In this document: positions 4,840 to 26,513 of the stretch, one piece after another
Numbering within the stretch: the first letter of the stretch is position 1
Layout of the letters: each line of letters begins with the position of its first letter
Origin: a virus
DNA: 37,336 nt
IMG/VR virus record: IMGVR_UViG_3300025413_000005
Strand: one strand, 5' to 3'
Translations under genes and position numbers: made by a program
Notes under the pieces: model-generated
Seen by the model: only the letters and a program-made list of their open reading frames with translations
Told to the model about the DNA's origin: nothing
Databases searched by the model: none

Positions 4840-4842
4840 CCC

Positions 4843-7800: not shown

Positions 7801-10800
7801 GCCCTTATTGAAGAAGGATACATGCCTGAAGATTCCACGGTCGATGACCTCTGGAATCACATAGCCAAGGCGAGTGAGAGCGCCATCAAGCAAACCAAGG
7901 CTGAAAAAGCTGAAACGGTACGTCAACGAGAAGAAGCAAAGTTTGACAAAGAACTTGCTGATTTACGCGAAAAAGACCCCGTAGAATATCGTAAGCGCCT
8001 TGCGGAGATGGAGCCAGAGGAACAAAAGCGAACCGAGCGAACGCAATTAAGAGAAAGAATGCGCCGCATGGATCGTGAAGACAGAAACTATTTCCAGAAC
8101 GCCAGGGAAGAGGACAAACGGGAAAACGAAGAAACCTTTTCTTTGAAAAACCCTGATGTTCAGGCCTACCTTGATTTAGCTCATGTCCCTGAAGAAAAAA
8201 AAGAGCAGGCCGGAGAAGCTTTTAGCCAAGTCGCCAATGCGTCAACCGCCCCCTACCCAAGGAGCGAAGTATCCGCTTCCGGAGGAGTGGATCGGGACGA
8301 GCTTCGACAAGTCCGCGAAGAACAAGCCGCCGCTTACCGGGGGCTGCTGAAAGGTGATGCCGAGGCGGTTAAAAATGCCATTGAAAACGGCGTGCCGCTT
8401 TCCAAGCTCATTGCCGCGTATGCCAAGGGAGAGGTAACGCCTTTCTCCATCCAAGGGGCAATTATCAATAGCCCCGCAGACTTGGCCGCGCACAATCTAG
8501 CGCACCGAACCCCTTTCTTTGAGAGTCTTAAAGTCGCCGTCCTCGACAACTCTAACCAAGTGATTCATTCGGAATTGATTTCGATTGGATCGCTCAATGA
8601 GTCGATAGCTCACCCGCGCGAAATCATGCGCGCCGTTGAACGTGGAAAACAAGTCGGCTCCGATTTAGGGCGCAAGATTAAAGGTTGGATGCTCATGCAT
8701 AATCATCCAAGCGGAGATCCTACCCCTAGCGAGACCGATAGGAGGCTTACTCGTCGGCTTGATGAGGTGGCCGGCATGATGGAATCCCCCCTTCTGGATC
8801 ATGTCATTACAAACGGGGAAACGTATTTTAGCTTTAATCAAGCAGGGATTAACGGAAGAGGCGTAAGCGGTGATTCGAAGCTGAAGCCAAAACTACAAAC
8901 TATCCCCAAGCCCGAAGACCTTAAAGAAGGCACAATGGCCGATTGGGAAGCCATTCCCGCCGGCGAGGCCCCAAGAATTGAACGTGCCGCAATGGTTCAA
9001 GCAATCAGGGCCACGCTTCAAACGGCTGATCCTGGAATGATTCATGTGCTGAACCTAAACACGCGCCATGGACTTATCAGCGTGGACAGGCACCCGCTCG
9101 ACGTATCCCCTGGAGAAATCCTCAAGCAGTCCTCTAAACACGGAACCTATGCCATAGCGCTTTCTTTCCCTGATACAAGCCCCGAGGGCGTTCCTATGGA
9201 CACGCAGGGCGCAATGGCTGCCTGGAGGCCGTTTGTCCGAAAGATGACCGAAGCGGGTACGCTCTATCAACTTCCACTTGTTGACGCCGTTACCAAGGAG
9301 TTTTCGTGGAGAGAGTCGGGATTGTTAGAGGAGCCTGGTAAATATGGATCAGATAACTCAGTTAATGAGGAAAAAACATATTTTCAAGCAGCGCGACCCG
9401 AGGACGATCACGTTTCCCCGCTTGAAAAGCTCAAGCAGCAAGCAAAAGCAACTTCTGATTACCTTCTCAAGCTCCCGCAAGACACGGCATTTTCTAGGGC
9501 AGTCCTAGACTTGAGCAAGAAGCGCCAGATTTCTACCCAGCAGATTCAGAAAGCTATCAAGGACATTGCAGAGGTGGCAAAGACGCCCGTAGAACGGGAA
9601 GCCCTCTTCAACTACATCGAAGCCAACGGGGACCGTGCAAAGCTCCAAAGGCAGGCCGACGCTACGGCAGACCCCAAGCTGAAAGCCGGTTACGAGGAAG
9701 CCGTCAAGGCATCCCCCGAAATGGTGGAGGTAGCCAAAGAGATTTCCAACGCCTACGCATCCATTTTGGCCCGTCTTCGTAAAGAAGGCTATGATGTCGG
9801 TGAACGCTCCAACTACGCAGGAACCCACCAATATAAAAAAGAACCAGGTGACAAGGCCCCCGTTGCCATCAAGAGGCTTACGGACAACTTCAAGTATGCC
9901 GAGAGGCGTGAGTTTAACACTGCATTTGACGCAGAGCAGGCGGGATTCAATGTCCGCACCAAGGATGCCGCTGAATTGCTGGGATCATATCTGTCCCACG
10001 CCAACGACATCCTCATCAATCGCCAGTTTGTTAAAAGCCTTTTTGGAAGCGGGGCAAAGGCAACCGATGAAAGGGCATTGGTCTCTCCCCGTGGAGGATT
10101 CGGCCAGAAGCCTAGCCCCGATTCCAAAGGTATTTACATTGACCCAGAAAGAGCACAAGTCGGAACGGCAGATTATGTTCCGCTAGATCAACCGGCGCTC
10201 AAAGGCTACCATTTCATTGACCAGAAGCAGAACATCGCGGTCAAAGGTGATTTTGCCGTTCACCCGGAGATTGCGCGGCATATTAACAACATCTTTGGGG
10301 AATCCAAACTGAAGCAGGCGTACAACGACCCGCACCTCAACCCTGCCCTAAAGCCGCTTGTTAAGATCCTACAGGGCGCAGATCTAGCCGGTCAGTATGC
10401 CAAAGCCACCCTTTACTCTGGTCTATCGTTTTTCCACCAAGCTCACGAAGGCTTCAACGTCATATTCCACGGGGTCAATCCGATTGAATACAAGTCTGCC
10501 CCCGACATTGAACATGACCCCCTCGCCCGTGATGCGGCAGAACATGGCGTCCAGTTGGCGCCTGACAGAATGACGCAGGATCAGTTCAAGCAAGAGATCG
10601 GAGAGCAAAGCAAGAGTCTCCTGACAATGGGTCTCCGAGCCGCAAAGCTGAAGCCAACCGATGCGGTAGCCGATTGGATTGACGGGTACACTCATTACCT
10701 TTTCGAAAACTACATCCCAAACATGAAGCTCAAAGCCTATCAGATGGCCCTTGAGCGCAACATGAAGCTTTTTGAAAAAGAATTGGCATCGGGTAAAGTG

Positions 10801-11793
10801 AATGAACGGCAAGTCAAGATGATGTCGGCATACCAGGCAAACGAGTATGCGGGACACCAGAACCTTACCGTGATGGGCAGAAGCCCGACCTTTCAGCACC
10901 TTGCTTCGATCTTCCTGGGCGCTCCCGATTTCCTAGAAGCGCAGGCACGTTTCCAAGGTCACGCCCTGCTTGGGCTAACCGGCTCCAAGGCTAATCGTGA
11001 GTTTCTTCGTGCAGCGGCATTGCAGGCAATCACGATGTTTATCGGCGCTAGGATTCTGAACTACGCAATCAATCAGGAGCTAGGCCTAGACCATCCTTTT
11101 GAGATCCGTATCAGAGATCGGTATTATGGATTCCGTTCTAGGACGGGTGACACCTACAACCTTATTAAAGACATTGTCGAAAACGGGGTGCCGACCACGT
11201 TCCTTTCTGGGCGAATTTCTCCTTTGGTTGGGAAATTTATGTTGGAGGCAGCTTCTCACAAAAACTACCGAGGGGAACGAGTTGGAATCGGCGGATTGAT
11301 TGCCGACACCCTTGCAGGAATCGTCCCAATTTCCACGCAACCCTTGATTCGCCAATGGACGACCACGGGTAAAAACAACCCTATTTCTGCTTTTGAGCAG
11401 TTGGTGGCAAACGTGCTTGGTTTCCAAATCCATCGGTATAGCCCGATTACCAACACCTACCCCATTGCACGGGCGTGGATGAAGGCCAACTACCCCGATA
11501 AGGTCAACGAGGACATTCACCCGACCGGCAAATTTACGCACCTCAAATACGCCCTTGAGGATGGCGACACTCAAAAATCGCAAGATGAAATCCAAAACCT
11601 TTTAAAGTCGGGCATGACCCTTCAACAAATCTCCACCAAGTTTAAGGCGAGTCTCAACCACCCGTTCACGGATTCAAAAGAGCATGAAGAGGAGTTTGTA
11701 AAATCATTGGAAGGGGAACACCTCAAAACTTACCAAGCAGCCATGGAAAGAAAAAAACTGATCCTAGAGCGGTTCCAGAACCTCCCTAGATAG
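4843..11793 (+). CDS. Giant (2316 aa) polyvalent internal virion/ejection protein: membrane-insertion segments, HExxH zincin domain, E/R/K helix, RadC-like JAB domain plus degenerate second JAB, large C-terminal region
   Basis: Uninterrupted 6951-nt ORF in the gp16 position. HELWHH at 7162-7179. MLMHNHPSGDPTPSETD (HNHPSG 8698-8715) is the RadC/JAB metal site. Hydrophobic G/A-rich segments at about 5950-6460. Confidence 0.9.
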   Translation: MPDPVMPDLPMVENQSPTINLGPDQFHFDPVEAANQSAGMAPQPIHNPDFASHPERDTVRAVLNDRANLGGKLPQAVTDSKTDDNPQDFRDMAANIKAMSFYSGKDTAEISPNYEQEKQNFVKAQGWDMPNSEGAFNGQLRDFFNTQDARQQAIEDLHSRAILDAGKGISSDEALQTSWQEWNTQHASALAGVPEAEAFSAWKKGYWNNLQQLQGEHHDLAQQIVDLYGNFPKGEQEAQGVKQLAAITAESAKAPLGLAGDQPALKAQQTEDQQKEELITKLQSLPPEERQKVYHRAAALEKAKNPDNFGMATSLYSMGQAAGRSMDWLSPSAPDVSTPRGRVALELQHAARDIVNPLPYSDVNALDATKKGLPIIGTQVGQGLAGAVPTIGAFALTGEYGGLAYMLAQTSLENRDRLLINNPSMTPKEALSFGYLMAVPVVALQSITFMGLKGAFPSLEKALADWGAGKMFFANTAVGGAAFSASEIASNLADSAIHALNAEWNPDASVKKGLKETLLNAPQDFAMAAAFALLHIGHKPDTEAGKKQADQAMADVQKPDAPKMVTTADGAKVIIAHDEKGQPKEVFKTKDPEVAASALEIVHDEQRRNTDTPTPKSKWTGVTDDANDVANDAANFNLSKDDQSQTSNGEKGDLTNSATDGKSKNAEAETSGTLANTADASEAGLPIRTLNSSLASENKSTRVTAATPDQLSKLSLDPKFQLADQLAGIFKKRIIVYSGDENDPNGITSQATGLDQYIFLKLDGARPHLFTLGHELWHHLEADYKELAKSLRKELAPLIKNWAQMNGKYQSYGYKPHRFFDEHVADFLGDSFQDPDFLNNLRNRNPEAFADFTTRALEWLNGVLEKLKGWVMGGTDHMRDIQSARDMLAEGLDKYLNQDDSPIVGRDSPQWWKAEPRATGERQTFTDDPIIAYLNENRIRSKSEQDKRNKSQGIEGAGEYDGVPKLPPAHSSKIYGGSQSVDQAHQALIEEGYMPEDSTVDDLWNHIAKASESAIKQTKAEKAETVRQREEAKFDKELADLREKDPVEYRKRLAEMEPEEQKRTERTQLRERMRRMDREDRNYFQNAREEDKRENEETFSLKNPDVQAYLDLAHVPEEKKEQAGEAFSQVANASTAPYPRSEVSASGGVDRDELRQVREEQAAAYRGLLKGDAEAVKNAIENGVPLSKLIAAYAKGEVTPFSIQGAIINSPADLAAHNLAHRTPFFESLKVAVLDNSNQVIHSELISIGSLNESIAHPREIMRAVERGKQVGSDLGRKIKGWMLMHNHPSGDPTPSETDRRLTRRLDEVAGMMESPLLDHVITNGETYFSFNQAGINGRGVSGDSKLKPKLQTIPKPEDLKEGTMADWEAIPAGEAPRIERAAMVQAIRATLQTADPGMIHVLNLNTRHGLISVDRHPLDVSPGEILKQSSKHGTYAIALSFPDTSPEGVPMDTQGAMAAWRPFVRKMTEAGTLYQLPLVDAVTKEFSWRESGLLEEPGKYGSDNSVNEEKTYFQAARPEDDHVSPLEKLKQQAKATSDYLLKLPQDTAFSRAVLDLSKKRQISTQQIQKAIKDIAEVAKTPVEREALFNYIEANGDRAKLQRQADATADPKLKAGYEEAVKASPEMVEVAKEISNAYASILARLRKEGYDVGERSNYAGTHQYKKEPGDKAPVAIKRLTDNFKYAERREFNTAFDAEQAGFNVRTKDAAELLGSYLSHANDILINRQFVKSLFGSGAKATDERALVSPRGGFGQKPSPDSKGIYIDPERAQVGTADYVPLDQPALKGYHFIDQKQNIAVKGDFAVHPEIARHINNIFGESKLKQAYNDPHLNPALKPLVKILQGADLAGQYAKATLYSGLSFFHQAHEGFNVIFHGVNPIEYKSAPDIEHDPLARDAAEHGVQLAPDRMTQDQFKQEIGEQSKSLLTMGLRAAKLKPTDAVADWIDGYTHYLFENYIPNMKLKAYQMALERNMKLFEKELASGKVNERQVKMMSAYQANEYAGHQNLTVMGRSPTFQHLASIFLGAPDFLEAQARFQGHALLGLTGSKANREFLRAAALQAITMFIGARILNYAINQELGLDHPFEIRIRDRYYGFRSRTGDTYNLIKDIVENGVPTTFLSGRISPLVGKFMLEAASHKNYRGERVGIGGLIADTLAGIVPISTQPLIRQWTTTGKNNPISAFEQLVANVLGFQIHRYSPITNTYPIARAWMKANYPDKVNEDIHPTGKFTHLKYALEDGDTQKSQDEIQNLLKSGMTLQQISTKFKASLNHPFTDSKEHEEEFVKSLEGEHLKTYQAAMERKKLILERFQNLPR

Positions 11794-11850: not shown

Positions 11851-11871
11851 GGACATCTCCTAAAGATGTCC
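11851..11871 (+). promoter_or_regulatory. Hairpin sequestering the tail fibre start codon
   Basis: ggacatct (11851-11858) / cctaa loop / agatgtcc (11864-11871): a perfect 8-bp stem. The ATG 11866-11868 lies in the 3-prime arm. Confidence 0.35.
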
Positions 11872-14397
11872 GTTTCAAACCTTCAATCCTCAACAGGGGC
11901 GCTGGTCGGGAATAACTCGACCACGACGGGGTACGTCGTCCCGTTTGCTTTTCAGCTTCCTTCAGACTTGGTAGTCGTTCGAAGGGATTCCAGCGGCAAT
12001 GTTTATTTTTTGGGTATCGGCACGGATTACACCGTGACTCAGAACTCCAATCTTTCCGGCGGTACCGTTTACACAATCGCGCCATGGGATTCGACCAATA
12101 CCCTGGTCATTACACGAGTTGTTCCCCTCACCCAGCTACTAAACCTCATTCCCGGCGCAAAAGAACCGGCAGCGGCCATTACACAGGCTTTTGACAAGCT
12201 GACCTATATCGCTCAGCAGCTTTCCCGTAACTCCGTTCCCGACACCATCACGGCTTTAGGCGTGGGGCCTTATGTCTTGGGACTCTCTGCTGCTGGTGGC
12301 ACCCCGACCTGGACGAGTCAGTCTTCTGCTTCTATTGCTGACGGGTCTATTACCCCTGCCAAGCTATCTGCTGGCAAGCCTACTTGGAATACTAGCGGCA
12401 ACCTGACCGCGACATCTTTTATCGGCCCCGTAACAGGGAATGTGACAGGTAACCTCACCGGCAATGTCACAGGCAATGTCACAGGCAATGTCACAGGCAA
12501 TGTCACAGGCACGGCATCCAATATTGCCGACGGGGCGGTTTCTTCATCTGCAAAACTTGCAGCCGGATCGGTATCAACGGACAAAATAATCGATCAGGCT
12601 GTTTCCACTGGAAAATTAGCCGATCAGGCTGTTTCCACTGGAAAATTAGCCGATCAGGCTGTCACTGGCCAAAAAATAGCCGATGGGACAATTTCCATCA
12701 CAAAGCTTGACAATGACGCCAACGAGCGCCTTTTTGAGTCCACTCCGTCGGGAGTAGCTTGCGACGGAAGGATTCAAGGGATTGCGATCGTCATACCTGG
12801 AGCGCTTTATACATCGCCGCCCGTGGTTACAATTTCGGCGCCTCCATCTGGAGGCATTCAGGCCACGGCATCTGCGACTTTAGGAACAGGAAGTAAAGCC
12901 GGGCAAGTAATCTCGATTTCCGTCACCAATAAGGGCAAAGGATACAAAACAGATCCAACGGTAACTTTTTCTTCACCTCCGACAGGAGGGACGATTGCTA
13001 AAGCGATTGCCTACGCCGACACCTCTGGAATCGAACAGGGCTCCAGTAATGCAGGAGGAAGCCAGGAGTGCATTTCCTTCATTATGAAGGACGGTCAGAT
13101 TATGAGCGTCGGGGCAAACAACGGCTATGGATACGTTGGAGCTCTCGGGGACATTGACTATACCGTACTACCCCAGCCCGCCTCGACGGGGGGATTATCA
13201 GCTAAATTTGTACGCCTCTGGAAGGCGTGGCATAACATGTATGCCCTGGACACCGCCGGGCAACTTTGGGCGTGTGGAATTGGAGGCGTGGGGGCCCTAG
13301 GTGCAAACAATTCCTCAAGTGATTGGCGGCAATTAAATCAAACTTCTGTTCCCGCTCCGGTTGCCAAGTTTGCAACAAGCTACGGAAGGGATAACAACGC
13401 ATGCCTAGCGCTGCTTGGAGATGGCCGCCTTTACGGTTGGGGCTACAATGCGCAAGGAGCGCTTGGAGACAATACGCTAACAAACGTCATCAACCCCAAA
13501 ATCATTTCTTCACCGATTTCAGGAATTTGGACCGCCGAAAGCAACATTGTTAATTTTGCTTTGATTGGAGCAGATGGAAGTATATCCACGTTTCTGCTTC
13601 GCTCTGATGGAACTGTGCGGAGCGCTGGCCGCAACGATTACGGCCAGCTTGGCCACGGAACGGCTAACCCCTACGAATACAATGGGTTTTCTTATGTCCT
13701 AACGGCAGCTAATACGCTGTTAAGTTCGGTTAAAAAGATCGTAGGGTGCGGAGCAAGCACTTATGGAACTACGCTATTTTTGCGAACCGATGGCACTATT
13801 TACGCCTGCGGTAGAGGTTCGAATGGCCAACTTGGCAATGGAACAACGCCAGCCAATCAAAATTTTGCTCAACCTTGCTCAATTACAGGCGCGGCAAACA
13901 TTTGGGCAACTGGCGGCCCGGGCGGATCTACTGGTCATATCCATGTCCTAAAAAGCGATGGATCACTTTGGGCTTGGGGCCACAACAATGCTGGTCAACT
14001 AGGGACGGGAGCGGCAACTCCGGTCAATGTTAGCGCTCCTGTGCAAGTATGGCCCGCGGCCAATGGCATCGTTGTCGATGTGGCCCAGCATGGCGGAGCT
14101 GATACAGGCGGAACCATGATCCTCCTTGCGGATGGAAGAATGTTTTACACCGGAAATGGAGCTTATGGATGCCGTGGCGACGGAGGAACGGGAACCACGA
14201 ACGGACAATGGACTCAAGTTCAGCTTAACCGCCGCGACATCGTGGACATCAATTTTGGATCCAATCAAGACGCGCCCGTAATGACCATCCTCACTTCCAC
14301 CGGCGAAGTCTATGCGTGCGGAATCAATTTGCGCGGCACCCTTGGAAATGGCCGCACATACACTCTAAGAAGCATGCCAGGCAGAGTCGTTTTCTAA
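11866..14397 (+). CDS. Tail fibre: T7 gp17-like N-terminal tail-attachment domain, tandem-repeat shaft, C-terminal RCC1-type beta-propeller
   Basis: The N-terminus YVVPFAFQLPSDLVVVRRD...GTDYTVT...VITRVVPLTQ matches the gp17 N-terminal pattern (FNIPFEYL..VVV..DY..L.R.T; T7 sequence recalled from memory). The C-terminus has repeated GxNxxGQLG/GALG motifs (RNDYGQLGHG, GSNGQLGNG, HNNAGQLGTG, YNAQGALGDN, INLRGTLGNG). Confidence 0.85.
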   Translation: MSVSNLQSSTGALVGNNSTTTGYVVPFAFQLPSDLVVVRRDSSGNVYFLGIGTDYTVTQNSNLSGGTVYTIAPWDSTNTLVITRVVPLTQLLNLIPGAKEPAAAITQAFDKLTYIAQQLSRNSVPDTITALGVGPYVLGLSAAGGTPTWTSQSSASIADGSITPAKLSAGKPTWNTSGNLTATSFIGPVTGNVTGNLTGNVTGNVTGNVTGNVTGTASNIADGAVSSSAKLAAGSVSTDKIIDQAVSTGKLADQAVSTGKLADQAVTGQKIADGTISITKLDNDANERLFESTPSGVACDGRIQGIAIVIPGALYTSPPVVTISAPPSGGIQATASATLGTGSKAGQVISISVTNKGKGYKTDPTVTFSSPPTGGTIAKAIAYADTSGIEQGSSNAGGSQECISFIMKDGQIMSVGANNGYGYVGALGDIDYTVLPQPASTGGLSAKFVRLWKAWHNMYALDTAGQLWACGIGGVGALGANNSSSDWRQLNQTSVPAPVAKFATSYGRDNNACLALLGDGRLYGWGYNAQGALGDNTLTNVINPKIISSPISGIWTAESNIVNFALIGADGSISTFLLRSDGTVRSAGRNDYGQLGHGTANPYEYNGFSYVLTAANTLLSSVKKIVGCGASTYGTTLFLRTDGTIYACGRGSNGQLGNGTTPANQNFAQPCSITGAANIWATGGPGGSTGHIHVLKSDGSLWAWGHNNAGQLGTGAATPVNVSAPVQVWPAANGIVVDVAQHGGADTGGTMILLADGRMFYTGNGAYGCRGDGGTGTTNGQWTQVQLNRRDIVDINFGSNQDAPVMTILTSTGEVYACGINLRGTLGNGRTYTLRSMPGRVVF
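12436..12507 (+). repeat. 12-nt in-frame tandem repeat, 6 units (GNVT/GNLT)
   Basis: gggaatgtgaca ggtaacctcacc, then ggcaatgtcaca x4 exact (12460-12507). Confidence 0.95.
12591..12680 (+). repeat. 30-nt in-frame tandem repeat, 2 exact units plus 1 diverged (DQAVSTGKLA)
   Basis: cgatcaggctgtttccactggaaaattagc at 12591-12620 and 12621-12650 (identical); diverged copy at 12651-12680. Confidence 0.95.
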
Positions 14398-21107: not shown

Positions 21108-21200
21108 ATGCGCCTTCTTCTTCGATTCCTGGAAATCATCCGGCTCAGGAAGAAGGCGCAACCTTTCTCCAAACACAACCGCATTACATGGAAACCATGA
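21108..21200 (+). CDS. Possible 30-aa basic peptide
   Basis: ATG 21108 ... TGA 21198-21200, ATGA-coupled to the next small ORF. MRLLLRFLEIIRLRKKAQPFSKHNRITWKP. Supported only by fit in an otherwise empty 240-nt gap. Confidence 0.2.
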   Translation: MRLLLRFLEIIRLRKKAQPFSKHNRITWKP

Positions 21201-21313
21201 TTTTAGCCCTTGGCGCCTGCCTGTGCTCCTTCCTCATCGGAAGGCTCTCGGTGGGTGCCTTCAGCAAAGAAGAAAGGCCGGAAGACGCAGCAACGTCCTC
21301 CGACCTTGATTGA
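21197..21313 (+). CDS. Possible 38-aa single-TM peptide
   Basis: MILALGACLCSFLIGRLSVGAFSKEERPEDAATSSDLD: a hydrophobic helix plus an acidic tail. Too short to be sure. Confidence 0.25.
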   Translation: MILALGACLCSFLIGRLSVGAFSKEERPEDAATSSDLD

Positions 21314-21338
21314 ACGAAACCCTAGAGAAGTAACGAAC

Positions 21339-22457
21339 ATGTCCACTGAAACCCTAGAAGCCCCATCCGTCAAGCCCCAAGCCTCGCAAGGCATTGAGCT
21401 TGAGCAGTTCGCCGACGCCGTAACCCTTGGAGAGGAGCGCTTGCTTGACTCCGGTGATTACGACTTTGCCGCGGCCAAGGCCCACGCCCTTTTCCGGGCA
21501 TGGGCTCCCACCTTTATCCCCACCCTGGCATCCCATGATGTCCTTGAAGTGGAGAGCGAGTTCTCTTTCCCGCTCCTCAACCCCGAGAGCGAGGCCCCGT
21601 CCAAGACGTTTGTGGAGGCCGGAAAGATTGACGGAGTCCTTCGCCACAAGGCCAGCGGCACCATTAAGACCCTGGAGCACAAGACCACAAGCGATTCCAT
21701 CGCGCCGGATTCCAATTATTGGCCCCGGCTCATCATGGACACGCAGCCGAGCAAATACATCCTCTCGCTCCAGCATCGCGGGATCGTTGCCAACTCTGCC
21801 CTCTACAACGTGGTCAGTAAGCCCGCCCAGCGCCCCAAGGGAATCCCCATTCTCGATGAAGAAGGGCGCAAGATTGTCCTGGATTCAGACGGCCAGCGCG
21901 TTTTCACCAAGGACGGCAAGAAGCCCCGCGAGACAGGAAGCCCCGCCGATGGGTATTTCCTCCAGACCCGCGAGGAAACCCCCGAGGAGTTCCATCATCG
22001 CATCCTAGATGAGTTGACCGGCTCCCCCGGCGATTACTTCGCCCAACGGGAGATCCCCCGCCAGGACCGGGCGCTTTTGGAATACATGGAGGACGCATGG
22101 GCTCTCTCCCAGCAAATCCTCTACTTCCGCCGCTCCAACCTCTGGCCGCGCAATCCTTCGGCCTGCACGCAGTTCGGAACCTGTGAGTTCTTTGACCTGT
22201 GCTCGGGCCGCGCCTCAGTGGATGGGATCCGCTACGCCGCAAAGCCCAAGCGCCACGCCGAGCTTGAGACGCCCGAAAACGGCAAGGAGTTCCTGACCAA
22301 CTCTCGCCTTTCGGCGCTTCGCAAGTGTTCGCGCTACCACTTCCACCGCTACGAGCAACCCATCAAGCCCATCCGCGATGAAGACGAGGCGCTCCGCATT
22401 GGCAGCGCTTTCCACGTCGCCGTTGAGGCCTTCCTTGCAACCTTCCTCGTCAAATAA
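21339..22457 (+). CDS. PD-(D/E)XK nuclease of the Cas4/RecB/AddB type with Cys cluster (recombination exonuclease)
   Basis: ATG 21339 (the track's 21210 is a non-ATG extension). GKIDGVL ... LEHKT (D...ExK, 21675-21683), QPSKY (QxxxY), CTQFGTCEFFDLC (22164-22202). The canonical 'N-terminal' motif SRLSALRKCSRYHFHRY...GSAFHVAVEAF sits at the C-terminus. Confidence 0.8.
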   Translation: MSTETLEAPSVKPQASQGIELEQFADAVTLGEERLLDSGDYDFAAAKAHALFRAWAPTFIPTLASHDVLEVESEFSFPLLNPESEAPSKTFVEAGKIDGVLRHKASGTIKTLEHKTTSDSIAPDSNYWPRLIMDTQPSKYILSLQHRGIVANSALYNVVSKPAQRPKGIPILDEEGRKIVLDSDGQRVFTKDGKKPRETGSPADGYFLQTREETPEEFHHRILDELTGSPGDYFAQREIPRQDRALLEYMEDAWALSQQILYFRRSNLWPRNPSACTQFGTCEFFDLCSGRASVDGIRYAAKPKRHAELETPENGKEFLTNSRLSALRKCSRYHFHRYEQPIKPIRDEDEALRIGSAFHVAVEAFLATFLVK

Positions 22458-22483
22458 CCCCGTCACCCCAAAAAACCAACACC

Positions 22484-22855
22484 ATGAAAGCCCAACAGAT
22501 CGCCACCATCCTTTCAGTCCTTCTGGCCGAAAAAGAACCCTCCGAGTCCGTGAAGACCTGCGAGGAGACCACAGTCCACCCCATGCTCGGAAAGCGGTGC
22601 CTCATCCGCACCTACTCGGCAGGAGTCCACATTGGTGACATTGAGCATGTCAACGGCATGGAGGTGAAGCTCAAGAACGCCCTACGCCTCTGGAAGTGGG
22701 AGGGGGGCGGCTTATCGCTCTCGGCTGTCGCCAACAACGGCATCAAGGGAGGCCGACTCAACCGCACTGGCGAGGTCTACCTGACCAACGTCATCGAGAT
22801 GATTCCGACGACAGGGGAGGCGGAAAAGACCTATGTCAAATTCATCGAGGATTAA
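22484..22855 (+). CDS. Conserved-looking phage protein of unknown function
   Basis: 123 aa. GKRCLIRTYSAGVHIGDI...ALRLWKWEGGGLSLSAVANNG...VIEMIPTT resembles a small phage protein family I have seen in recombination/replication regions (memory only). Confidence 0.65.
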   Translation: MKAQQIATILSVLLAEKEPSESVKTCEETTVHPMLGKRCLIRTYSAGVHIGDIEHVNGMEVKLKNALRLWKWEGGGLSLSAVANNGIKGGRLNRTGEVYLTNVIEMIPTTGEAEKTYVKFIED

Positions 22856-23102
22856 GGAGCTGCACCACGGTCATGAGTGCAAGGACGGCTCCGGCTACGG
22901 CGACGGCTCCGGCGACGGCTCCGGCTACGGCTCCGGCTACGGCTACGGCGACGGCTCCGGCGACGGCGACGGCGACGGCTCCGGCGACGGCTCCGGCTAC
23001 GGCTCCGGCTACGGCTCCGGCTACGGCGACGGCGACGGCTCCGGCGACGGCTCCGGCTACGGCGACGGCTACGGCTACGGCGACGGCTCCGGCGACGGCT
23101 AA
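22833..23102 (+). CDS. Low-complexity protein: 17-aa His/Cys-containing head plus strictly alternating (X-Gly)36, X = Asp/Ser/Tyr
   Basis: ATG 22833 (23-nt overlap with the upstream gene), stop 23100-23102. All frames are open over the repeat, so frame choice is uncertain. This frame is the only one with an ATG upstream of the whole array, and it uses common-looking codons (GGC GAC TCC TAC). Confidence 0.45.
   Translation: MSNSSRIKELHHGHECKDGSGYGDGSGDGSGYGSGYGYGDGSGDGDGDGSGDGSGYGSGYGSGYGDGDGSGDGSGYGDGYGYGDGSGDG
22884..23099. repeat. 216-nt hexanucleotide array made only of GACGGC, TCCGGC and TACGGC units (36 units)
   Basis: Read directly. No deviation from the NNCGGC pattern across 36 units. 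Confidence 0.95.
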
Positions 23103-23169
23103 GCGAACCGCCGCACCAACTCAATCACCACTCTAACCATCTACCCCCAACAACCAACCCCGTCATAAC

Positions 23170-24060
23170 ATGTCTATCCTATCCAAAATCAAGCGCGGTG
23201 GAGAAACCCTTCCTCCCCGCGTCCTCCTCTCGGGCCCCGAGGGCATCGGCAAGAGTACCTTTGCCGCCAACGCCCCCTCCCCGCTCTTCATCTCCCAGGA
23301 GAACGGGCTCACCGGCCTAGATCACGTCGCGCACCTTTCGCCCGAGTCCTTTGCGGACACGCTGGCGATGGTGGATGAGCTAACGGCCAATCCCTCCGAG
23401 TACAAAACTCTCGTGCTCGATACGATGGATTGGCTAGAGCGTTCGATCCACGCCTTTATTTGCGCCCGCGACGGTAAGCAGAACGTCGAGGATTACGGTT
23501 ACGGCAAGGGCTATAAGGTAGCCGAGGCCGAGCTTGTCCTGCTTCTCAACAAGCTGGATGCGCTCCGCTCCTCTCAGAAGGTGGGCGTAATCCTTCTCTC
23601 ACACGTTCAAATTAAAGCGTTCACCTCCCCCGAGGGAACCGCCTGGGATCGCTACGAGATGAAAGGCCACAAGGGATTCACGGGAATCCTTCGCGAATGG
23701 CCAGATGCCTGCCTGTTTGCCGTCTATGAGGTCCACAAGATGAAGGAGCGCGGCGAGAACCGGGAGCGCGTCATCGGTGGGGATCGCGTGGTTCACACCT
23801 CTTGGAGCCCCGGATGGGATGCCAAGAACCGCCTCGGTCTTCCCGAGATCCTTCCCCTCTCCTACGAGGAATTTGCCGCGGCCGTGGAGGCTAACAGCCC
23901 TTCTAAGCTCCGCGCCGAGTTCATGGCCCTGCTGGAGTCCTCCACCCTGGACGCCGCTGCCCGCAAGGCCTGGACAAAAACCCCCGTTGAAACCCTCGCC
24001 CCCGACCGCATCCGCGCCGGGATCGCCAAACTCCAAAAACTCCAACCCGTCACCAAGTAA
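23170..24060 (+). CDS. Sak4-like RecA-fold ATPase (AAA_24-type single-strand annealing/recombination protein)
   Basis: Walker A LLSGPEGIGKST, Walker B TLVLDTMD. Overall pattern (...YGKGY...LLSH...) as in phage Sak4/AAA_24 proteins. Flanked by a nuclease and an SSB-like gene. Confidence 0.8.
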   Translation: MSILSKIKRGGETLPPRVLLSGPEGIGKSTFAANAPSPLFISQENGLTGLDHVAHLSPESFADTLAMVDELTANPSEYKTLVLDTMDWLERSIHAFICARDGKQNVEDYGYGKGYKVAEAELVLLLNKLDALRSSQKVGVILLSHVQIKAFTSPEGTAWDRYEMKGHKGFTGILREWPDACLFAVYEVHKMKERGENRERVIGGDRVVHTSWSPGWDAKNRLGLPEILPLSYEEFAAAVEANSPSKLRAEFMALLESSTLDAAARKAWTKTPVETLAPDRIRAGIAKLQKLQPVTK

Positions 24061-24064
24061 CCCC

Positions 24065-24661
24065 ATGGCCTACGAATCCAACAACAATAACGCCGACCGC
24101 TACGTTTCCCGCGTGGGAACCTTTCGCTGTGTCGTGCTCCCCACTCCCAACGGCATTTTCTCCGAGAGCAAGGAGGGAACCCCCTGCATCGCCCTTCCCC
24201 TGGAGGTGATCGACGCCGGTGATCAGCAGGGTAAGCGTATCACCTGGAAGGGCTGGCTCACTGCCGGTGCCTTTGACTACACGATCCGTGCTCTTTCCAA
24301 GGCTTTTGCCTGGGATGGAGACCTGGAGGCTATCCGCGACAACCCAGAGTTTTTCTCCCGTTCGGAATGCGCGATCGTCACCGAGAGCGAGACTTACAAC
24401 GGGGAGACCCGCGTGAAGGTCAAATGGCTCAACTCTGCAAACGGAGGCGGAGCCAAGGCGATGGACTCACAGAAGCTCAACGGGATCCTTTCCGGACTTG
24501 GCCGCAAGGCCAAGGCGATTGCCAAGGAAGCCCTTGCCGAGGATGGGGCAACACCCGTTCCAACCACTCTGAGCGCACCGCGCCCGAGCGCCCATGACCG
24601 CGCCAAGGCCAACGGATACGCGCCCGAAACCGACCTTGCCGAGGACGACATTCCCTTTTGA
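24065..24661 (+). CDS. Non-canonical SSB-like protein with bacterial SSB C-terminal tip (…EDDIPF)
   Basis: ATG 24065. 198 aa with a disordered Ala/Pro-rich tail ending AEDDIPF, as in E. coli SSB (DDDIPF). Sits directly after the Sak4-like gene, as cognate SSBs do. Confidence 0.7.
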   Translation: MAYESNNNNADRYVSRVGTFRCVVLPTPNGIFSESKEGTPCIALPLEVIDAGDQQGKRITWKGWLTAGAFDYTIRALSKAFAWDGDLEAIRDNPEFFSRSECAIVTESETYNGETRVKVKWLNSANGGGAKAMDSQKLNGILSGLGRKAKAIAKEALAEDGATPVPTTLSAPRPSAHDRAKANGYAPETDLAEDDIPF

Positions 24662-24663
24662 TC

Positions 24664-24954
24664 ATGCTCGCCCTTACTTACCCGACCGATCCAGGTCACA
24701 AGGAGAACACCACCAGCCGCGAGGCGGCGCTTTCTATGAGCAAGGAAAGCTCCCGCCTTCGCATCCTGGTACTCCGCGCCCTCAGTAAGCCCATGACGGC
24801 GGACGAATGTGCGGATTCCCTGGGAATGTCCGTCCTCTCAATCCGCCCGCGCTTCACGGAGCTTCAGCGGCACGGAATCATCGAGGAGACAGGAGAACTA
24901 CGTCACAACCGAAGCGGACGCCGGGCGAAAGTCTGGCAAAGGAGGGTGGCGTGA
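24664..24954 (+). CDS. Winged-helix (MarR/ArsR-like) DNA-binding protein
   Basis: RILVLRALSKPMTADECADSLGMSVLSIRPRFTELQRHGIIEETGELRHNRSGRRAKVW fits helix-turn-helix plus beta-wing. The alternative start TTG 24658 overlaps the upstream stop. Confidence 0.65.
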   Translation: MLALTYPTDPGHKENTTSREAALSMSKESSRLRILVLRALSKPMTADECADSLGMSVLSIRPRFTELQRHGIIEETGELRHNRSGRRAKVWQRRVA

Positions 24955-25193: not shown

Positions 25194-25624
25194 AAATCCT
25201 GCATTCCTTCACGCTTCCCGTTACCCCGATTTCCCTTCAGAAGAGCGGAAAGAGGATCTTTGTCGTCAATGGAAAGCCACGGTTTTTTAAGGATAAAAAG
25301 GCTCAATCTTACCAGAATGGGATTGTCCTTTTGTGCCGCCAGCATTTTCCTGAAAGCCGGTATGAGATGCCTTTGGCACTGGAGCTGAAATTTGTGATGC
25401 CGAGGCCCCAGCGCCTCAAGCCCACCGATTCCTTGGCAGCCAGCAAAAGGCCCGACCTGGACAACCTGATCAAAGGCACTCAGGACGCCCTTTCGGAGTT
25501 CTGGGTGGATGATGATCAGATTGTTTGCCTGATCGCCTCAAAGAAATACGCGCCGGAGGGTCACTTCCCGTGCATTGGCGTCACCATTTGTGACGCCACC
25601 AGCCTTTTCGACGATGCCCAATAG
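25190..25624 (+). CDS. rusA: RusA-family Holliday junction resolvase
   Basis: ATG 25190 (ATGA overlap). KRPDLDNLIKGTQDALSEFWVDDDQIV is the RusA catalytic Asp pattern (PDxDNxxKxxxDxL...DDxQ). Confidence 0.85.
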   Translation: MKILHSFTLPVTPISLQKSGKRIFVVNGKPRFFKDKKAQSYQNGIVLLCRQHFPESRYEMPLALELKFVMPRPQRLKPTDSLAASKRPDLDNLIKGTQDALSEFWVDDDQIVCLIASKKYAPEGHFPCIGVTICDATSLFDDAQ

Positions 25625-26513
25625 GATTCTCCGCGATTACACCGACAGCGAAGCCATGAACGAAATTTCCGCTCAGTGCGAGCGCCTTTTCATCCGCCTT
25701 ATTCAAAAGGCCGATGATTATGGAAATTACCACGCCAATCCGGCGCTTATCCGCTCGGGCTGCTTCCCCCTCATGCTTGATACCGTCCGCGAGGCCGACA
25801 TATCCCGTGATCTTGCTGCGTGCGAGAAAGCCGGACTGATTGCTCTCTACGAGGTCTCAGGAAAGAACTTCTTGAATATCAAGAATTTCAATCAGCGCAT
25901 GAGGAACAGCAGGCCCAAGTATCCACTGCCAACTTGGCAGCAAAATGACGGCAAGCCGACCGTCAATCCTCCGCCAAGTCGCGGCAAGTCGCCGCGAGTG
26001 GCCGCAACTCGCGGGAAGTCGCGGCCTGAATCGGAGACGTATTCGGAGACGGAGACGTATTCGGAGACGGAGACGAACACCCCCCAACCCCCCACGGGGG
26101 GTGAACAGCCGGTGGGTGAGGAAATCCTCGATGTCGTGCCGCCGGTCAAAAAGCCGTTCGACATCGACAGCTTTCCTGACGCCCCCCAGCCCTCCCGAGC
26201 CGAAATCGACGCCGAGATTCGCCGCGGTGCCGACCTGATGGATCAGGAGGAGGAGTTCAACGTCTGGTTTGCCGAGTACCCCAAGCAAACCGACCGACAC
26301 GAAGCCGCCCGCCAGTGGCTAGCTACCCGTGGCAACCGTCCCGACCTGGATTCCCTCCTTGCCGCTCTGGAAACGCAGAAGGCAAGCGAGCAATGGACCA
26401 GGGACGCCGGGCGCTACGTTCCCAACCCCGCGGCCTACCTGGCCCACCGCAAGTGGGAGGACAAGCTTCAGGCCGGGAAGAAACCCCGTACATCACCCCA
26501 TGCAGACTTTTAA
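25614..26513 (+). CDS. Replication initiator / replisome organiser-like protein containing the candidate origin
   Basis: ATG 25614. The N-terminus CERLFIRLIQKADDYGNYHANPALIRSGCFPL...EKAGLIALYEVSGKNFLNIKNF looks winged-helix-like. Followed by a DnaC-like loader. DNA-level tandem repeats lie in its middle. Confidence 0.6.
   Translation: MPNRILRDYTDSEAMNEISAQCERLFIRLIQKADDYGNYHANPALIRSGCFPLMLDTVREADISRDLAACEKAGLIALYEVSGKNFLNIKNFNQRMRNSRPKYPLPTWQQNDGKPTVNPPPSRGKSPRVAATRGKSRPESETYSETETYSETETNTPQPPTGGEQPVGEEILDVVPPVKKPFDIDSFPDAPQPSRAEIDAEIRRGADLMDQEEEFNVWFAEYPKQTDRHEAARQWLATRGNRPDLDSLLAALETQKASEQWTRDAGRYVPNPAAYLAHRKWEDKLQAGKKPRTSPHADF
25975..26024. repeat. Five tandem 10-nt units (consensus caagtcgcgg): iteron candidates
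   Basis: caagtcgcgg caagtcgccg cgagtggccg caactcgcgg gaagtcgcgg. A 10-nt period is not a multiple of 3, so the repeat is at DNA level, not protein level. Confidence 0.55.
26031..26078. repeat. 12/18-nt tandem repeats tcggagac(ggagac)gtat x3
   Basis: tcggagacgtat tcggagacggagacgtat tcggagacggagacgaac, encoding SETYSETETYSETETN. Confidence 0.8.

What the first reader, a model, noticed from the sequence alone, without database searches (positions are those of the whole stretch)
22833..23102. Gene-sized array of 36 hexanucleotides encoding a strictly alternating (X-Gly)36 Asp/Ser/Tyr polymer
Nt 22884-23099 consist only of GACGGC, TCCGGC and TACGGC units.
- In the frame with an upstream ATG (22833) this reads MSNSSRIKELHHGHECK + (D/S/Y-G)x36, hand count 14 Asp, 12 Ser, 10 Tyr. 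Only four codons are used, with no synonymous variation, which points to recent slippage or expansion.
- Strict Gly alternation recalls silk-type beta-sheet repeats.
- [G/S]Y[G/S] motifs are the sticker elements of FUS-like phase-separating domains.
- The HHGHEC head could bind metal.

The gene sits inside the recombination/replication module, so a phage-encoded condensate or scaffold-forming protein, or a polyanionic mimic, is conceivable.

Caveat: all six frames are open. The +2 frame gives (Ala-Pro/Thr)n from ATG 22872, and there Tyr/Asp unit changes become silent GCT/GCG. A purely DNA-level role cannot be excluded.
Basis: partly seen in the sequence, partly recalled or inferred. Interest (0 to 1): 0.7.

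Follow-up and report, generated by a model that had tools for sequence, protein, structure and literature searches.

The report
Phage gene encoding alternating-glycine polymer
This is a real phage gene for a floppy, acidic protein chain in which every second residue is glycine and the rest are serine, tyrosine or aspartate. It almost always sits next to a small barrel-shaped partner protein (DUF6948), a two-gene module found in phages of many bacterial phyla for which I found no published description.

Summary
Window 22884-23099 is 36 perfect hexamers (14 GACGGC, 12 TCCGGC, 10 TACGGC), read from ATG 22833 as a 17-aa leader plus (D/S/Y-Gly)36.

It is a real gene read in the X-Gly frame.
- About 95 of roughly 100 informative related loci, from phages and prophages of many phyla and including cultured Pectobacterium phage Ymer, carry an (X-Gly)n ORF next to a DUF6948 gene.
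- Each such ORF has its own start codon overlapping or abutting the DUF6948 stop.
- The DNA unit differs between arrays (GGC, GGA or GGG; NNC or NNT; Ser as TCY or AGY). The Ser/Tyr/Asp-Gly reading is conserved.

The link is to DUF6948, not to Sak4. All 21 Sak4 relatives with upstream sequence have the exonuclease gene abutting Sak4, and none of the 22 has either gene.

DUF6948 is predicted to have an Sm/LSm-like barrel. Natural in-frame DUF6948-XG fusions exist.

Arrays evolve by unit turnover. A cassette 95.5% identical in DNA has the same 36 units in scrambled order.

Best reading (inferred, not shown): a disordered, acidic, Tyr-rich low-complexity partner or tail of an Sm-like protein, in an early accessory cassette. 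I found no published description. Function is untested.

The parts
22484..22855 (+). DUF6948 gene (123 aa). Predicted Sm/LSm-like small beta-barrel. The conserved partner of the array gene.
   Evidence: Pfam PF22253, E 2e-22. AlphaFold2 pLDDT 86.5. All top-50 Foldseek PDB hits are Sm/LSm proteins; 1i8f gives TM 0.78 and rmsd 1.6 A. 1391 clusters at 50% identity in the exhaustive search.
22814..22820 (+). Shine-Dalgarno-like GGGGAGG, 12 nt before ATG 22833, inside the 3' end of the DUF6948 gene.
   Evidence: Read directly from the sequence. Its function is inferred.
22833..22855 (+). 23-nt overlap of the XG ORF start with the DUF6948 3' end. The XG ORF is in the +1 frame, an arrangement expected to give translational coupling.
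   Evidence: The same arrangement, with an ATG or TTG start 20-30 nt before the DUF6948 stop, is seen in about 45 of 48 close loci. In distant loci the start overlaps or abuts the stop (in a few it lies up to about 30 nt downstream), and the frame is +1 or +2, never 0.
22833..22883 (+). Leader MSNSSRIKELHHGHECK, matching the clade motif M-x-N-(L/S)-L-K-x-K-x-H-H-G.
   Evidence: The leader is conserved in relatives and in tandem paralogues that do not overlap DUF6948.
22884..23099 (+). Array of 36 hexamers encoding (Asp/Ser/Tyr-Gly)36.
23100..23102 (+). TAA stop directly after the last unit.
   Evidence: In most relatives the stop follows within 0-2 codons of the array.
21339..22457 (+). Context: PD-(D/E)XK exonuclease. 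In Sak4 relatives this gene directly abuts Sak4, so the DUF6948+XG pair is an inserted cassette.
23170..24060 (+). Context: Sak4-like AAA_24 annealing protein. It is a neighbour, not a conserved partner.

Best explanation
ORF 22833-23102 is a genuine protein-coding gene.

Shown:
- It is read in the X-Gly frame from its own start codon, which overlaps the end of the upstream DUF6948 gene.
- The two genes form a self-contained cassette, present or absent as a unit and swapped between unrelated phage backbones.
- The array evolves quickly by gain, loss and conversion of hexamer units. This homogenises codons within an array. Selection acts on composition (about 50% Gly, with Ser, Tyr and Asp in near-equal shares, and a net negative charge) and on the Gly alternation, not on the order of units.
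- DUF6948 is predicted to be an Sm/LSm-like small beta-barrel.
- In a few lineages the XG tract is fused in frame to the C-terminus of DUF6948.

Inferred:
- The product is an intrinsically disordered, acidic, Tyr-rich polymer.
- It works as a detachable low-complexity tail of the DUF6948 oligomer. It would bind through many weak Tyr and Asp contacts to the invariant Arg, Trp and His residues of the barrel.
- In doing so it would either compete with single-stranded nucleic acid, as the acidic tip of Hfq does, or link DUF6948 particles into larger assemblies.
- This would happen during the early phase of infection, when replication and recombination genes are expressed.
For: Frame and reality of the gene:
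- An (X-Gly)n ORF lies immediately after DUF6948 in 47 of 57 viral loci. Two more loci have it immediately upstream. L056 has a mini version, and the remaining seven are cut by, or lie close to, a contig end.
- 47 of 53 loci from a species-representative bacterial and archaeal genome collection also have one, with DUF6948 identity down to about 35% and in many phyla. L101 has an irregular one.
- The start codon position is conserved as ATG or TTG.
- The codon sets differ between arrays but the amino-acid reading is the same. Ser is encoded by TCY in most arrays and by AGY in L050, L066 and L072.
- Across 130 distinct arrays and 3401 units, X is S 32%, Y 27% and D 25%.
- Gene callers annotate this frame in Pectobacterium phage Ymer (WCD42787.1).

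Cassette behaviour:
- The window and L082 share 95.5% DNA identity over DUF6948 plus leader, while the DNA on both sides is unrelated.
- In all 21 Sak4 relatives with upstream sequence the exonuclease gene abuts Sak4. None of the 22 has DUF6948 or an XG array.

Physical link:
- In-frame DUF6948-XG fusions exist: P0174, seen on 7 independent contigs, and P0267.
- Variants with a 70-aa N-terminal domain still follow and overlap DUF6948.

Fold and disorder:
- DUF6948 fold.
- XG disorder.

Precedent:
- Acinetobacter baumannii Hfq has an Sm core, GGFGGQ repeats and an acidic tip that affect RNA binding and autoregulation (PMC11617691).
- The Hfq C-terminal region bridges DNA (PMC12257945).
Against: - There is no experimental evidence of translation, binding, oligomerisation or nucleic-acid binding.
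- The Sm-like assignment rests on a predicted model, with marginal Foldseek E-values of about 2e-3.
- Profile comparison with E. coli Hfq is not significant.
- Neither the Pfam scan of the window protein nor the Pfam domains precomputed for the 120 listed homologues show an LSM or Hfq family.
- DUF6948 is near neutral (pI 6.8), unlike many RNA chaperones.
- XG arrays also occur without a visible DUF6948 gene: fused to DUF7666 (P0140), and in P0124 between Sak4 and SSB. The tract can therefore work with other partners.
- Two loci have an Acb2/Tad1-type anti-defence gene next to the pair, which fits an anti-defence role as well.
Confidence: 0.5

Rival explanations
1. Anti-defence decoy or nucleic-acid mimic. 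The acidic Tyr-rich polymer, alone or presented by DUF6948, would soak up or block a host immunity or DNA-processing protein early in infection. Its hypervariability would reflect an arms race.
For: - The cassette is dispensable, mobile and located in the early region.
- Acb2/Tad1-hairpin genes lie directly beside the pair in two loci, and DNA methylases are common neighbours.
- 128 of the 130 arrays are net negative.
- Unit order turns over quickly.
- Some phages carry 4-12 tandem paralogues.
Against: - There is no hit in PADLOC or to any known anti-defence family.
- What is conserved is composition, not a specific surface.
- Known DNA mimics such as Ocr and ArdA are folded proteins.
- The near-invariant DUF6948 sequence across phyla points to a universal target rather than a lineage-specific one.
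Confidence: 0.2
2. Precursor of a modified peptide (RiPP-like). A conserved leader (MxNLLKxKxHHG) would be followed by a variable core, as in multi-copy precursor arrays, with DUF6948 acting as the recognition or processing partner.
For: - Leader conservation and tandem multi-copy genes, each with its own leader.
- The HH motif.
- The stop codon falls right after the core.
Against: - No modifying enzyme, protease or exporter is conserved next to the pair.
- The leader is not conserved in distant clades.
- The DUF6948 model is an Sm-like barrel, not a PqqD-type recognition element.
- Fusions place the XG tract at the C-terminus of DUF6948.
Confidence: 0.05
3. The XG tract is made as a C-terminal extension of DUF6948 by programmed +1 ribosomal frameshifting in the 23-nt overlap, not as a separate protein.
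For: - The fixed +1 frame and overlap in the close clade.
- Natural in-frame fusions.
Against: - A start codon (ATG or TTG) is conserved at the head of the XG frame.
- Distant clades use +1 or +2 frames with their own ATG or GTG.
- No recognisable slippery or shift-prone site at GAT-TAA-G (read; this is my own judgement).
Confidence: 0.04
4. The array acts at the DNA or RNA level (binding sites, a recombination hotspot, a structured element), or another frame is the coding one (Ala-Pro/Thr or Arg-Leu).
For: - Five of six frames are open in the window.
- The array is GC-rich (79% against 54% for the window).
- GGC is preferred for Gly even in AT-rich phages.
Against: - The hexamer sequence is not conserved between arrays: CGGC, TGGC, CGGA, TGGG and CGGG cores all occur.
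- Other frames give unrelated peptides in relatives and contain stops in several of them.
- No Rfam family matches.
- The probable origin of replication, with iterons, lies elsewhere at 25975-26075.
Confidence: 0.02
5. A diversity-generating retroelement or other targeted mutator rewrites the first two bases of each hexamer.
For: - All X codons are NNC or NNT and the variable region sits at the C-terminal end of the ORF.
- Between the window and L082 there are 0 differences at 144 constant positions and 28 differences at 72 variable positions, with equal length.
Against: - None of the ten window ORFs of at least 256 aa matches a reverse-transcriptase family.
- There is no template copy of the array anywhere in the window.
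- Variation is G/T at the first position and A/C at the second, not adenine-specific.
- Only 3 of the 16 possible NNC codons are used, and Asn (AAC) is rare.
Confidence: 0.01

Closest known systems
Sm/LSm/Hfq proteins with glycine-rich low-complexity C-terminal tails: Acinetobacter baumannii Hfq with GGFGGQ repeats and an acidic tip (PMC11617691), and eukaryotic SmD1/SmD3 with (Gly-Arg)n tails (the latter from my own knowledge)
   Same: - A small Sm-type beta-barrel (predicted) combined with a repetitive Gly-rich disordered tract that carries acidic residues.
- Some family members have the tract fused to the C-terminus of the barrel.
- Repeat number varies.
   Different: - Here the tract is usually a separate, translationally coupled gene product.
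- It is a strict dipeptide repeat with Ser, Tyr and Asp.
- There is no detectable sequence similarity to Hfq or LSM.
- Ring formation and RNA binding are untested.
- The module is viral and accessory.
FUS-family or prion-like low-complexity domains with [G/S]Y[G/S] motifs (my own knowledge)
   Same: - A Gly/Ser/Tyr-rich composition.
- Every Tyr is flanked by Gly.
- Predicted disorder.
   Different: - Strict period-2 alternation.
- Only about 70 residues long.
- 25% Asp with a net negative charge and no Gln.
- Phase separation has not been tested.
Silk fibroin crystalline repeats (GAGAGS/GAGAGY) (my own knowledge)
   Same: - Strict X-Gly alternation with Ser and Tyr among the X residues.
- Encoded by slippage-prone hexamer repeats.
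   Different: - X is Ala-dominated in silk. Here Ala is 2.6% and Asp 25%, which disfavours stacked beta-sheets.
- The size differs by orders of magnitude.
- The phage protein has no signal peptide or hydrophobic N-terminal stretch in its leader (read from the translation), so it is presumably intracellular.
Bacterial SSB: an OB fold, a Gly-rich disordered linker and an acidic tip (my own knowledge; the bioRxiv paper 10.1101/2022.01.17.476650 was listed but not read in full)
   Same: - A small nucleic-acid-binding barrel with a Gly-rich low-complexity region and acidic residues.
- It sits in the same genomic neighbourhood in the window, next to Sak4 and an SSB-like gene.
   Different: - The fold is different.
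- The tract is encoded separately.
- There is no DDIPF-type tip on the XG protein.
C9orf72 GGGGCC hexanucleotide repeat and its dipeptide-repeat proteins (PMC10637751, abstract as listed; the paper was not opened)
   Same: - A GC-rich hexanucleotide repeat that is open in several frames and encodes X-Gly dipeptide polymers.
   Different: - In C9orf72 the products are a pathological expansion translated without an AUG.
- Here there is a conserved ATG/TTG-initiated gene under selection in one frame.

Membership tests
DUF6948-linked (X-Gly)n partner proteins (the family proposed here) | The ORF starts at or just before the stop of a DUF6948 gene, on the same strand | tested here: met
   In the window ATG 22833 lies 23 nt before the end of DUF6948. 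The same layout is seen in about 90 other loci.
DUF6948-linked (X-Gly)n partner proteins (the family proposed here) | A short leader, then at least about 10 X-Gly units with X mostly Ser, Tyr or Asp, and a stop soon after | tested here: met
   The window has a 17-aa leader, 36 units and TAA. Family composition is given.
Sm/LSm/Hfq superfamily (for the partner protein DUF6948) | Sm fold: a strongly bent five-stranded barrel | tested here: met
   AlphaFold2 model with pLDDT 86.5. All top-50 Foldseek PDB hits are Sm/LSm; 1i8f gives TM 0.72-0.78 and rmsd 1.6 A. This is a predicted model and the E-values are only about 2e-3.
Sm/LSm/Hfq superfamily (for the partner protein DUF6948) | Sm1/Sm2 sequence motifs, or profile similarity to LSM/Hfq | tested here: not met
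   The window protein matches only DUF6948 in Pfam. hhalign against E. coli Hfq gives probability 0.3%. The PDB profile search gives only a weak uL24 hit.
Sm/LSm/Hfq superfamily (for the partner protein DUF6948) | Hexameric or heptameric ring that binds single-stranded RNA | not testable with these tools
   No multimer prediction or binding assay was available.
Diversity-generating retroelement variable region | A reverse transcriptase and a template repeat nearby, with adenine-specific changes | tested here: not met
   No reverse-transcriptase hit among the ten window ORFs of at least 256 aa. No second copy of the array. The variable bases are G/T and A/C.
RiPP precursor peptide | Conserved modifying enzymes, protease or exporter in the neighbourhood | tested here: not met
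   Pfam scans of 64 downstream and 56 upstream neighbours show diverse early genes and no RiPP enzymes.
FUS-like phase-separating low-complexity domain | Multiple [G/S]Y[G/S] motifs in a disordered region | tested here: met
   10 G-Y-G motifs. pLDDT 41.6 with no secondary structure.
FUS-like phase-separating low-complexity domain | Forms condensates or hydrogels | not testable with these tools
   This needs purified protein or imaging.
Silk-type (Gly-X)n beta-sheet former | X dominated by small uncharged residues (Ala, Ser) | tested here: not met
   In the window X is Asp 39%, Ser 33% and Tyr 28%. Across the family Asp is 25% and Ala 2.6%.
Sak4 recombination module component | Co-occurs with Sak4 | tested here: not met
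   22 Sak4 relatives (37-74% identity, 19 of them 66-74%) lack both DUF6948 and XG. Most DUF6948+XG loci have other neighbours.

The most novel reading that the evidence does not exclude
DUF6948 plus its (Ser/Tyr/Asp-Gly)n partner may be a previously unrecognised, near-universal two-component system of tailed phages. In this reading an Sm-like ring and a fast-evolving, composition-selected dipeptide polymer build a multivalent assembly (a condensate or scaffold), or a nucleic-acid-mimicking trap, during early infection. That would be a bacterial-virus counterpart of eukaryotic low-complexity-domain biology, with the low-complexity 'tail' encoded as its own gene.
Probability: 0.25. Interest if true: 0.85.

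Novelty: new variant of a known kind. Interest (0 to 1): 0.72.

Why it matters
**Scale and annotation.** The DUF6948 family spans at least 1391 clusters at 50% identity. About 95% of the roughly 100 loci I inspected carry the polymer gene. That gene has no family model, is usually unnamed, and is sometimes called in the wrong frame, as in Chlorobiaceae phage CV-1-33 gene_25. Recognising the pair fixes that annotation.

**A concrete hypothesis for a DUF.** The pair suggests that DUF6948 is an Sm-like barrel working with a low-complexity partner.

**A model for composition-level selection.** The repeat is selected for composition and periodicity while its unit order is scrambled within about 5% of flanking divergence.

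**Tractability.** Cultured Pectobacterium phages of the Ymer genus carry the pair, so it can be tested directly. If the polymer drives assemblies or mimics nucleic acid, this would be a new principle in phage early biology.

Tried and rejected
- **Nucleotide search of the phage collection** with 21200-24700: only a 60-nt Sak4 hit, so there is no close cultured relative.
- **Family libraries for the XG protein.**
  - Pfam gives only sub-threshold low-complexity hits (TrAA12, CFAP143).
  - PHROGs, NCBIfam and PADLOC give nothing for the window protein.
  - One L053 paralogue had a far sub-threshold NCBIfam serine-rich hit.
- **Protein search with the XG sequence**: only 42 weak hits, because of composition filtering. 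It was useful only for finding domain-fused variants.
- **Exact-sequence look-ups** of the window's XG ORF and three alternative-frame ORFs: none is in the collection, so they say nothing about which frame was called on the source contig.
- **Literature**: no paper mentions DUF6948 or these peptide strings. The paper on the Ymer phage genus does not discuss the gene.
- **Diversity-generating retroelement:** rejected.
- **Known RNA family:** none.
- **Promoter and terminator scan:** nothing above chance around the gene.
- **Sequence-level homology of DUF6948 to Hfq:** not significant.
- **P0124 C-terminal domain against DUF6948:** not related.
- **AlphaFold2 of the XG protein alone:** shows only disorder.
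- **The 6-unit array in L085.** This is the same phage, 100% identical over 2.9 kb of flanks. I could not tell a real deletion from a short-read assembly collapse. Five short contigs simply end inside the array.
Full report
**1. The observation**

Window 22884-23099 is 216 nt made of exactly 36 hexamers: 14 GACGGC, 12 TCCGGC and 10 TACGGC. From ATG 22833 the ORF reads MSNSSRIKELHHGHECK, then (D/S/Y-G)36, then TAA at 23100-23102.

- Tandem Repeats Finder scores the array 264-306.
- A four-unit pattern matches 33 times, all inside the array, and never in 100 shuffles.
- Array GC is 79% against 54% for the window.

There are two minor corrections. The ATG of the Ala-Pro-Thr frame is at 22873, not 22872. 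One reverse frame holds 10 TAG stops, so five frames are open rather than six.

**2. Context in the window**

All genes run on the + strand. The window looks like a temperate podovirus-type genome.

- It carries an integrase, a head-tail connector (PF12236), a capsid protein, a 2316-aa protein with a RadC-like domain and an RCC1-repeat protein.
- A 37,128-nt contig, identical to the window over the 2.9 kb compared, exists in another assembly.

Around the array the gene order is:

| Coordinates | Gene |
|---|---|
| 21339-22457 | PD-(D/E)XK exonuclease |
| 22484-22855 | DUF6948 (PF22253, E 2e-22) |
| 22833-23102 | array ORF |
| 23170-24060 | Sak4-like AAA_24 |
| 24065-24661 | SSB-like protein ending in DDIPF |
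| further downstream | replication initiator and DnaC-like loader |

The array ORF starts 23 nt before the DUF6948 stop, in the +1 frame. A GGGGAGG motif lies 12 nt upstream of its ATG.

**3. The array belongs with DUF6948, not with Sak4**

*Sak4 relatives.* Searching viral contigs with Sak4 gave 22 loci at 37-74% identity (19 of them at 66-74%). None has an X-Gly array. In the 21 with upstream sequence the exonuclease gene abuts Sak4, and DUF6948 is absent from all 22.

*DUF6948 relatives in viral contigs.* Searching with DUF6948 gave 57 loci.

- 47 have an (X-Gly)n ORF directly downstream.
- Two have it directly upstream.
- One (L056) has a mini version, MRNLLKTNHHGYSGSGSGSGVD.
- The remaining seven are cut by, or lie close to, a contig end.

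*DUF6948 relatives in the genome collection.* A profile scan of one genome per bacterial and archaeal species gave 53 loci.

- DUF6948 identity goes down to about 35%.
- Many of the records are metagenome-assembled genomes. The assigned taxa include Sphingomonas, Brevundimonas, Bacteroidota, Treponema, Lachnospiraceae, Planctomycetota, candidate phyla and others.
- 47 of the 53 loci carry a Ser/Tyr/Asp-Gly array right after DUF6948.
- One more (L101) has an irregular version.

*Cultured examples.*

- Pectobacterium phage Ymer: CDS0033 plus CDS0032, which reads MSKLIKPEKYGSCSGDGSGYGDG....
- Chlorobiaceae phage CV-1-33: gene_26 plus gene_25. Gene_25 is annotated in the wrong frame, as MAMAMALAMA....

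*Family size.* The DUF6948 family is large: 1627 hits in the 90%-identity database and 1391 clusters at 50% identity. Almost all are stand-alone proteins of 90-160 aa.

**4. Which frame is read, and is the role at protein or DNA level**

*One codon per residue within an array, different codons between arrays.*

- GAC/TCC/TAC with GGC in the window and many others.
- GAT/TCT/TAT with GGC.
- GCC/GAC with GGA in L053 and L054.
- TAT/GAT with GGG in L057.
- TAC/GAC/ACA with GGA in L070.
- Ser is AGT or AGC in L050, L066 and L072. TCY and AGY cannot interconvert without passing through another amino acid, so Ser has been selected independently.

*Other frames.* They read differently in each array (APT, MGL, MAL, TGP, IRN, RL) and contain stops in several.

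*Start codon.* Its position is conserved as ATG or TTG. In distant clades the ORF has its own ATG or GTG. This start usually overlaps or abuts the DUF6948 stop (in a few loci it lies up to about 30 nt downstream). The frame is +1 in 18 loci and +2 in 27, never 0. That is the arrangement expected for translational coupling, not for one conserved frameshift.

*Composition.* Over 130 distinct arrays and 3401 units, X is Ser 32%, Tyr 27%, Asp 25%, Asn 3.5%, Ala 2.6% and Phe 2.4%. In 128 of the 130 arrays the net charge is negative. These arrays were pre-selected for at least 40% D/S/Y.

I conclude that the X-Gly frame is translated and that selection acts on the protein. The DNA-level and alternative-frame readings are rejected.

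**5. How the array evolves**

L082 carries a cassette whose DUF6948 gene plus leader is 95.5% identical in DNA to the window. The DNA on both sides of the cassette is unrelated, and L082 is a different phage backbone with DnaB and an Acb2/Tad1-hairpin gene.

Its array uses the same four codons and has exactly 36 units, but the unit order is no more similar to the window's than a shuffled order is. The unit-level alignment scores 24, against 20.2 ± 4 for shuffles. There are no differences at the 144 constant positions and 28 at the 72 variable positions.

- L053 and L054 differ by 18 whole units.
- L085 is the same phage as the window, with 2.9 kb of flanks 100% identical, but has only 6 units. 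This is either a real deletion between repeats or an assembly collapse.
- Five short contigs end inside the array.

This is concerted evolution by gain, loss and conversion of units. None of the ten window ORFs of at least 256 aa matches a reverse-transcriptase family, and there is no template copy of the array, so a diversity-generating retroelement is excluded. Why the window and L082 have the same length is unexplained.

**6. The partner protein**

DUF6948 is very conserved. 36 columns are invariant across 72 sequences, including R38, R42, H49, R68, W70, W72 and R91.

- AlphaFold2 gives pLDDT 86.5, and above 90 for residues 30-123 except one block. The model has five strands plus two helices.
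- All 50 best Foldseek matches in the PDB are Sm/LSm proteins. Archaeal SmAP1 (1i8f) gives TM 0.72-0.78 and rmsd 1.6 A over 80 columns, but the E-values are only about 2e-3.
- Among predicted viral structures, the hits are other DUF6948 proteins and uncharacterised small proteins.
- At the sequence level there is no significant similarity to Hfq or to any solved structure.

I therefore call it Sm-like in fold only.

**7. Evidence that the two products work together**

- **Presence and absence.** The two genes are present together and absent together (sections 3 and 5).
- **Fusions.** In-frame fusions of DUF6948 to a C-terminal XG-type tail exist: P0174 (143 aa, on 7 independent contigs from different assemblers) and P0267 (179 aa).
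- **Variants.** Partner proteins with a 70-aa N-terminal domain before the array still follow and overlap DUF6948.
- **Paralogues.** Some phages carry 4-12 tandem XG paralogues after DUF6948, each with an MxxLLxxHH leader.

The tract is not exclusive to DUF6948. It also occurs fused to DUF7666 (P0140), and in P0124, which lies between Sak4 and SSB.

Neighbours of the pair are varied early genes. They include RecT, Sak4, SSB, methylases, a beta-clamp, HNH endonucleases and Acb2/Tad1 (the last in two loci), and most have no Pfam hit.

**8. Mechanism**

Shown:
- A translationally coupled two-gene cassette.
- A polymer that is acidic (pI 4.05) and composition-selected.

Predicted:
- The polymer is disordered (pLDDT 41.6).
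- The partner is an Sm-like barrel.

Inferred:
- The polymer acts as a detachable low-complexity tail of a DUF6948 oligomer.
- It would bind through Tyr and Asp contacts to the conserved Arg, Trp and His surface.
- It would either compete with single-stranded nucleic acid or link particles into larger assemblies.

The nearest precedents are Hfq tails. In Acinetobacter baumannii Hfq, the GGFGGQ repeats and the acidic tip affect RNA binding and autoregulation (PMC11617691). [quoted passage not shown] From my own knowledge, the (Gly-Arg)n tails of SmD1/SmD3 and the Gly-rich linker of SSB are similar cases.

I put this reading at about 0.5. The main rival is an anti-defence decoy or mimic, at 0.2. 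It is favoured by the cassette's mobility, its early location, its hypervariability and its Acb2/Tad1 neighbours, but it has no direct support.

**9. Novelty**

No paper in the library mentions DUF6948 or these peptide strings. No family model covers the polymer.

I rate it a new variant of a known kind: a small nucleic-acid-type barrel plus a Gly-rich low-complexity tract, here split into two genes with a strict Ser/Tyr/Asp-Gly dipeptide polymer. It could prove categorically new if the Sm analogy fails.

The proposed link to Sak4 and the specific physical roles are not supported by anything I could test.

Noticed in passing
window 25975-26075: Iteron-like tandem repeats (CAAGTCGCGG x5, then CGGAGACGTATTCGGAGA x2.4) lie inside the replication-initiator gene 25575-26513. 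This is probably the phage origin of replication.
   Followed up: partly
window 4843-11793: A single 2316-aa ORF whose only Pfam hit is a RadC-like JAB domain at aa 1211-1335. It may be a giant internal-virion or ejected protein.
   Followed up: no
window 11866-14397: An 843-aa protein with RCC1 repeats (a likely tail fibre or receptor-binding protein). It contains 12-nt and perfect 30-nt tandem repeats at 12433-12511 and 12591-12662.
   Followed up: no
window 24065-24661: A 198-aa protein with no Pfam SSB hit that ends in ...EDDIPF, the classic SSB C-terminal tip. It is probably a divergent SSB, cognate to the Sak4-like protein.
   Followed up: no
L082 3701-3958: An Acb2/Tad1-hairpin gene (an anti-CBASS/Thoeris sponge family) lies directly after the XG gene in a phage carrying a 95.5%-identical DUF6948+XG cassette. 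A second locus has the same family upstream of the pair.
   Followed up: partly
L038 4333-6614; L041, L043, L045 about 4275-7700; L051; L063: Runs of 4-12 tandem small genes follow DUF6948. Each has a leader of the type MxxLLxxHH and then irregular X-Gly tracts with a wider range of X (F, C, N, E, K, W).
   Followed up: partly
L080 3286-3531 (Chlorobiaceae phage CV-1-33, gene_25, QOE32032.1): The deposited annotation reads the array in a wrong frame (MAMAMALAMA...). The Y/D/S-Gly frame, conserved elsewhere, is the likely product.
   Followed up: yes
arrays in L024, L033, L052, L068, L069, L078 and others: Gly is encoded almost only by GGC even where the locus GC is 30-42%, while the X codons follow genome GC (NNT). 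The cause is unknown. It could be tRNA-Gly(GCC) use or a DNA/RNA constraint.
   Followed up: no
L085 3350-3439 versus window 22833-23102: The same phage (100% identical over 1.4 kb upstream and 1.5 kb downstream) has only 6 units (DSYDSD) instead of 36. Five other short contigs stop inside the array. This is either real polymorphism or a short-read assembly collapse.
   Followed up: partly
P0140 (L146 799-1269); P0124 (L147 3001-3381): The same Ser/Tyr/Asp-Gly tract occurs fused to DUF7666, and at the N-terminus of a small protein lying between Sak4 (AAA_24) and SSB genes. No DUF6948 is seen nearby in either case.
   Followed up: partly
window 23103-23169: The 67-nt spacer between the array stop and the Sak4 start is C/A-rich (…CCACTCTAACCATCTACCCCCAACAACCAACCCC…). 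There is no Shine-Dalgarno-like motif before ATG 23170, unlike the XG gene.
   Followed up: no
P0213 (216 aa): A protein with two tandem DUF6948 domains and no XG tail. This is compatible with the domain working as an oligomer.
   Followed up: no
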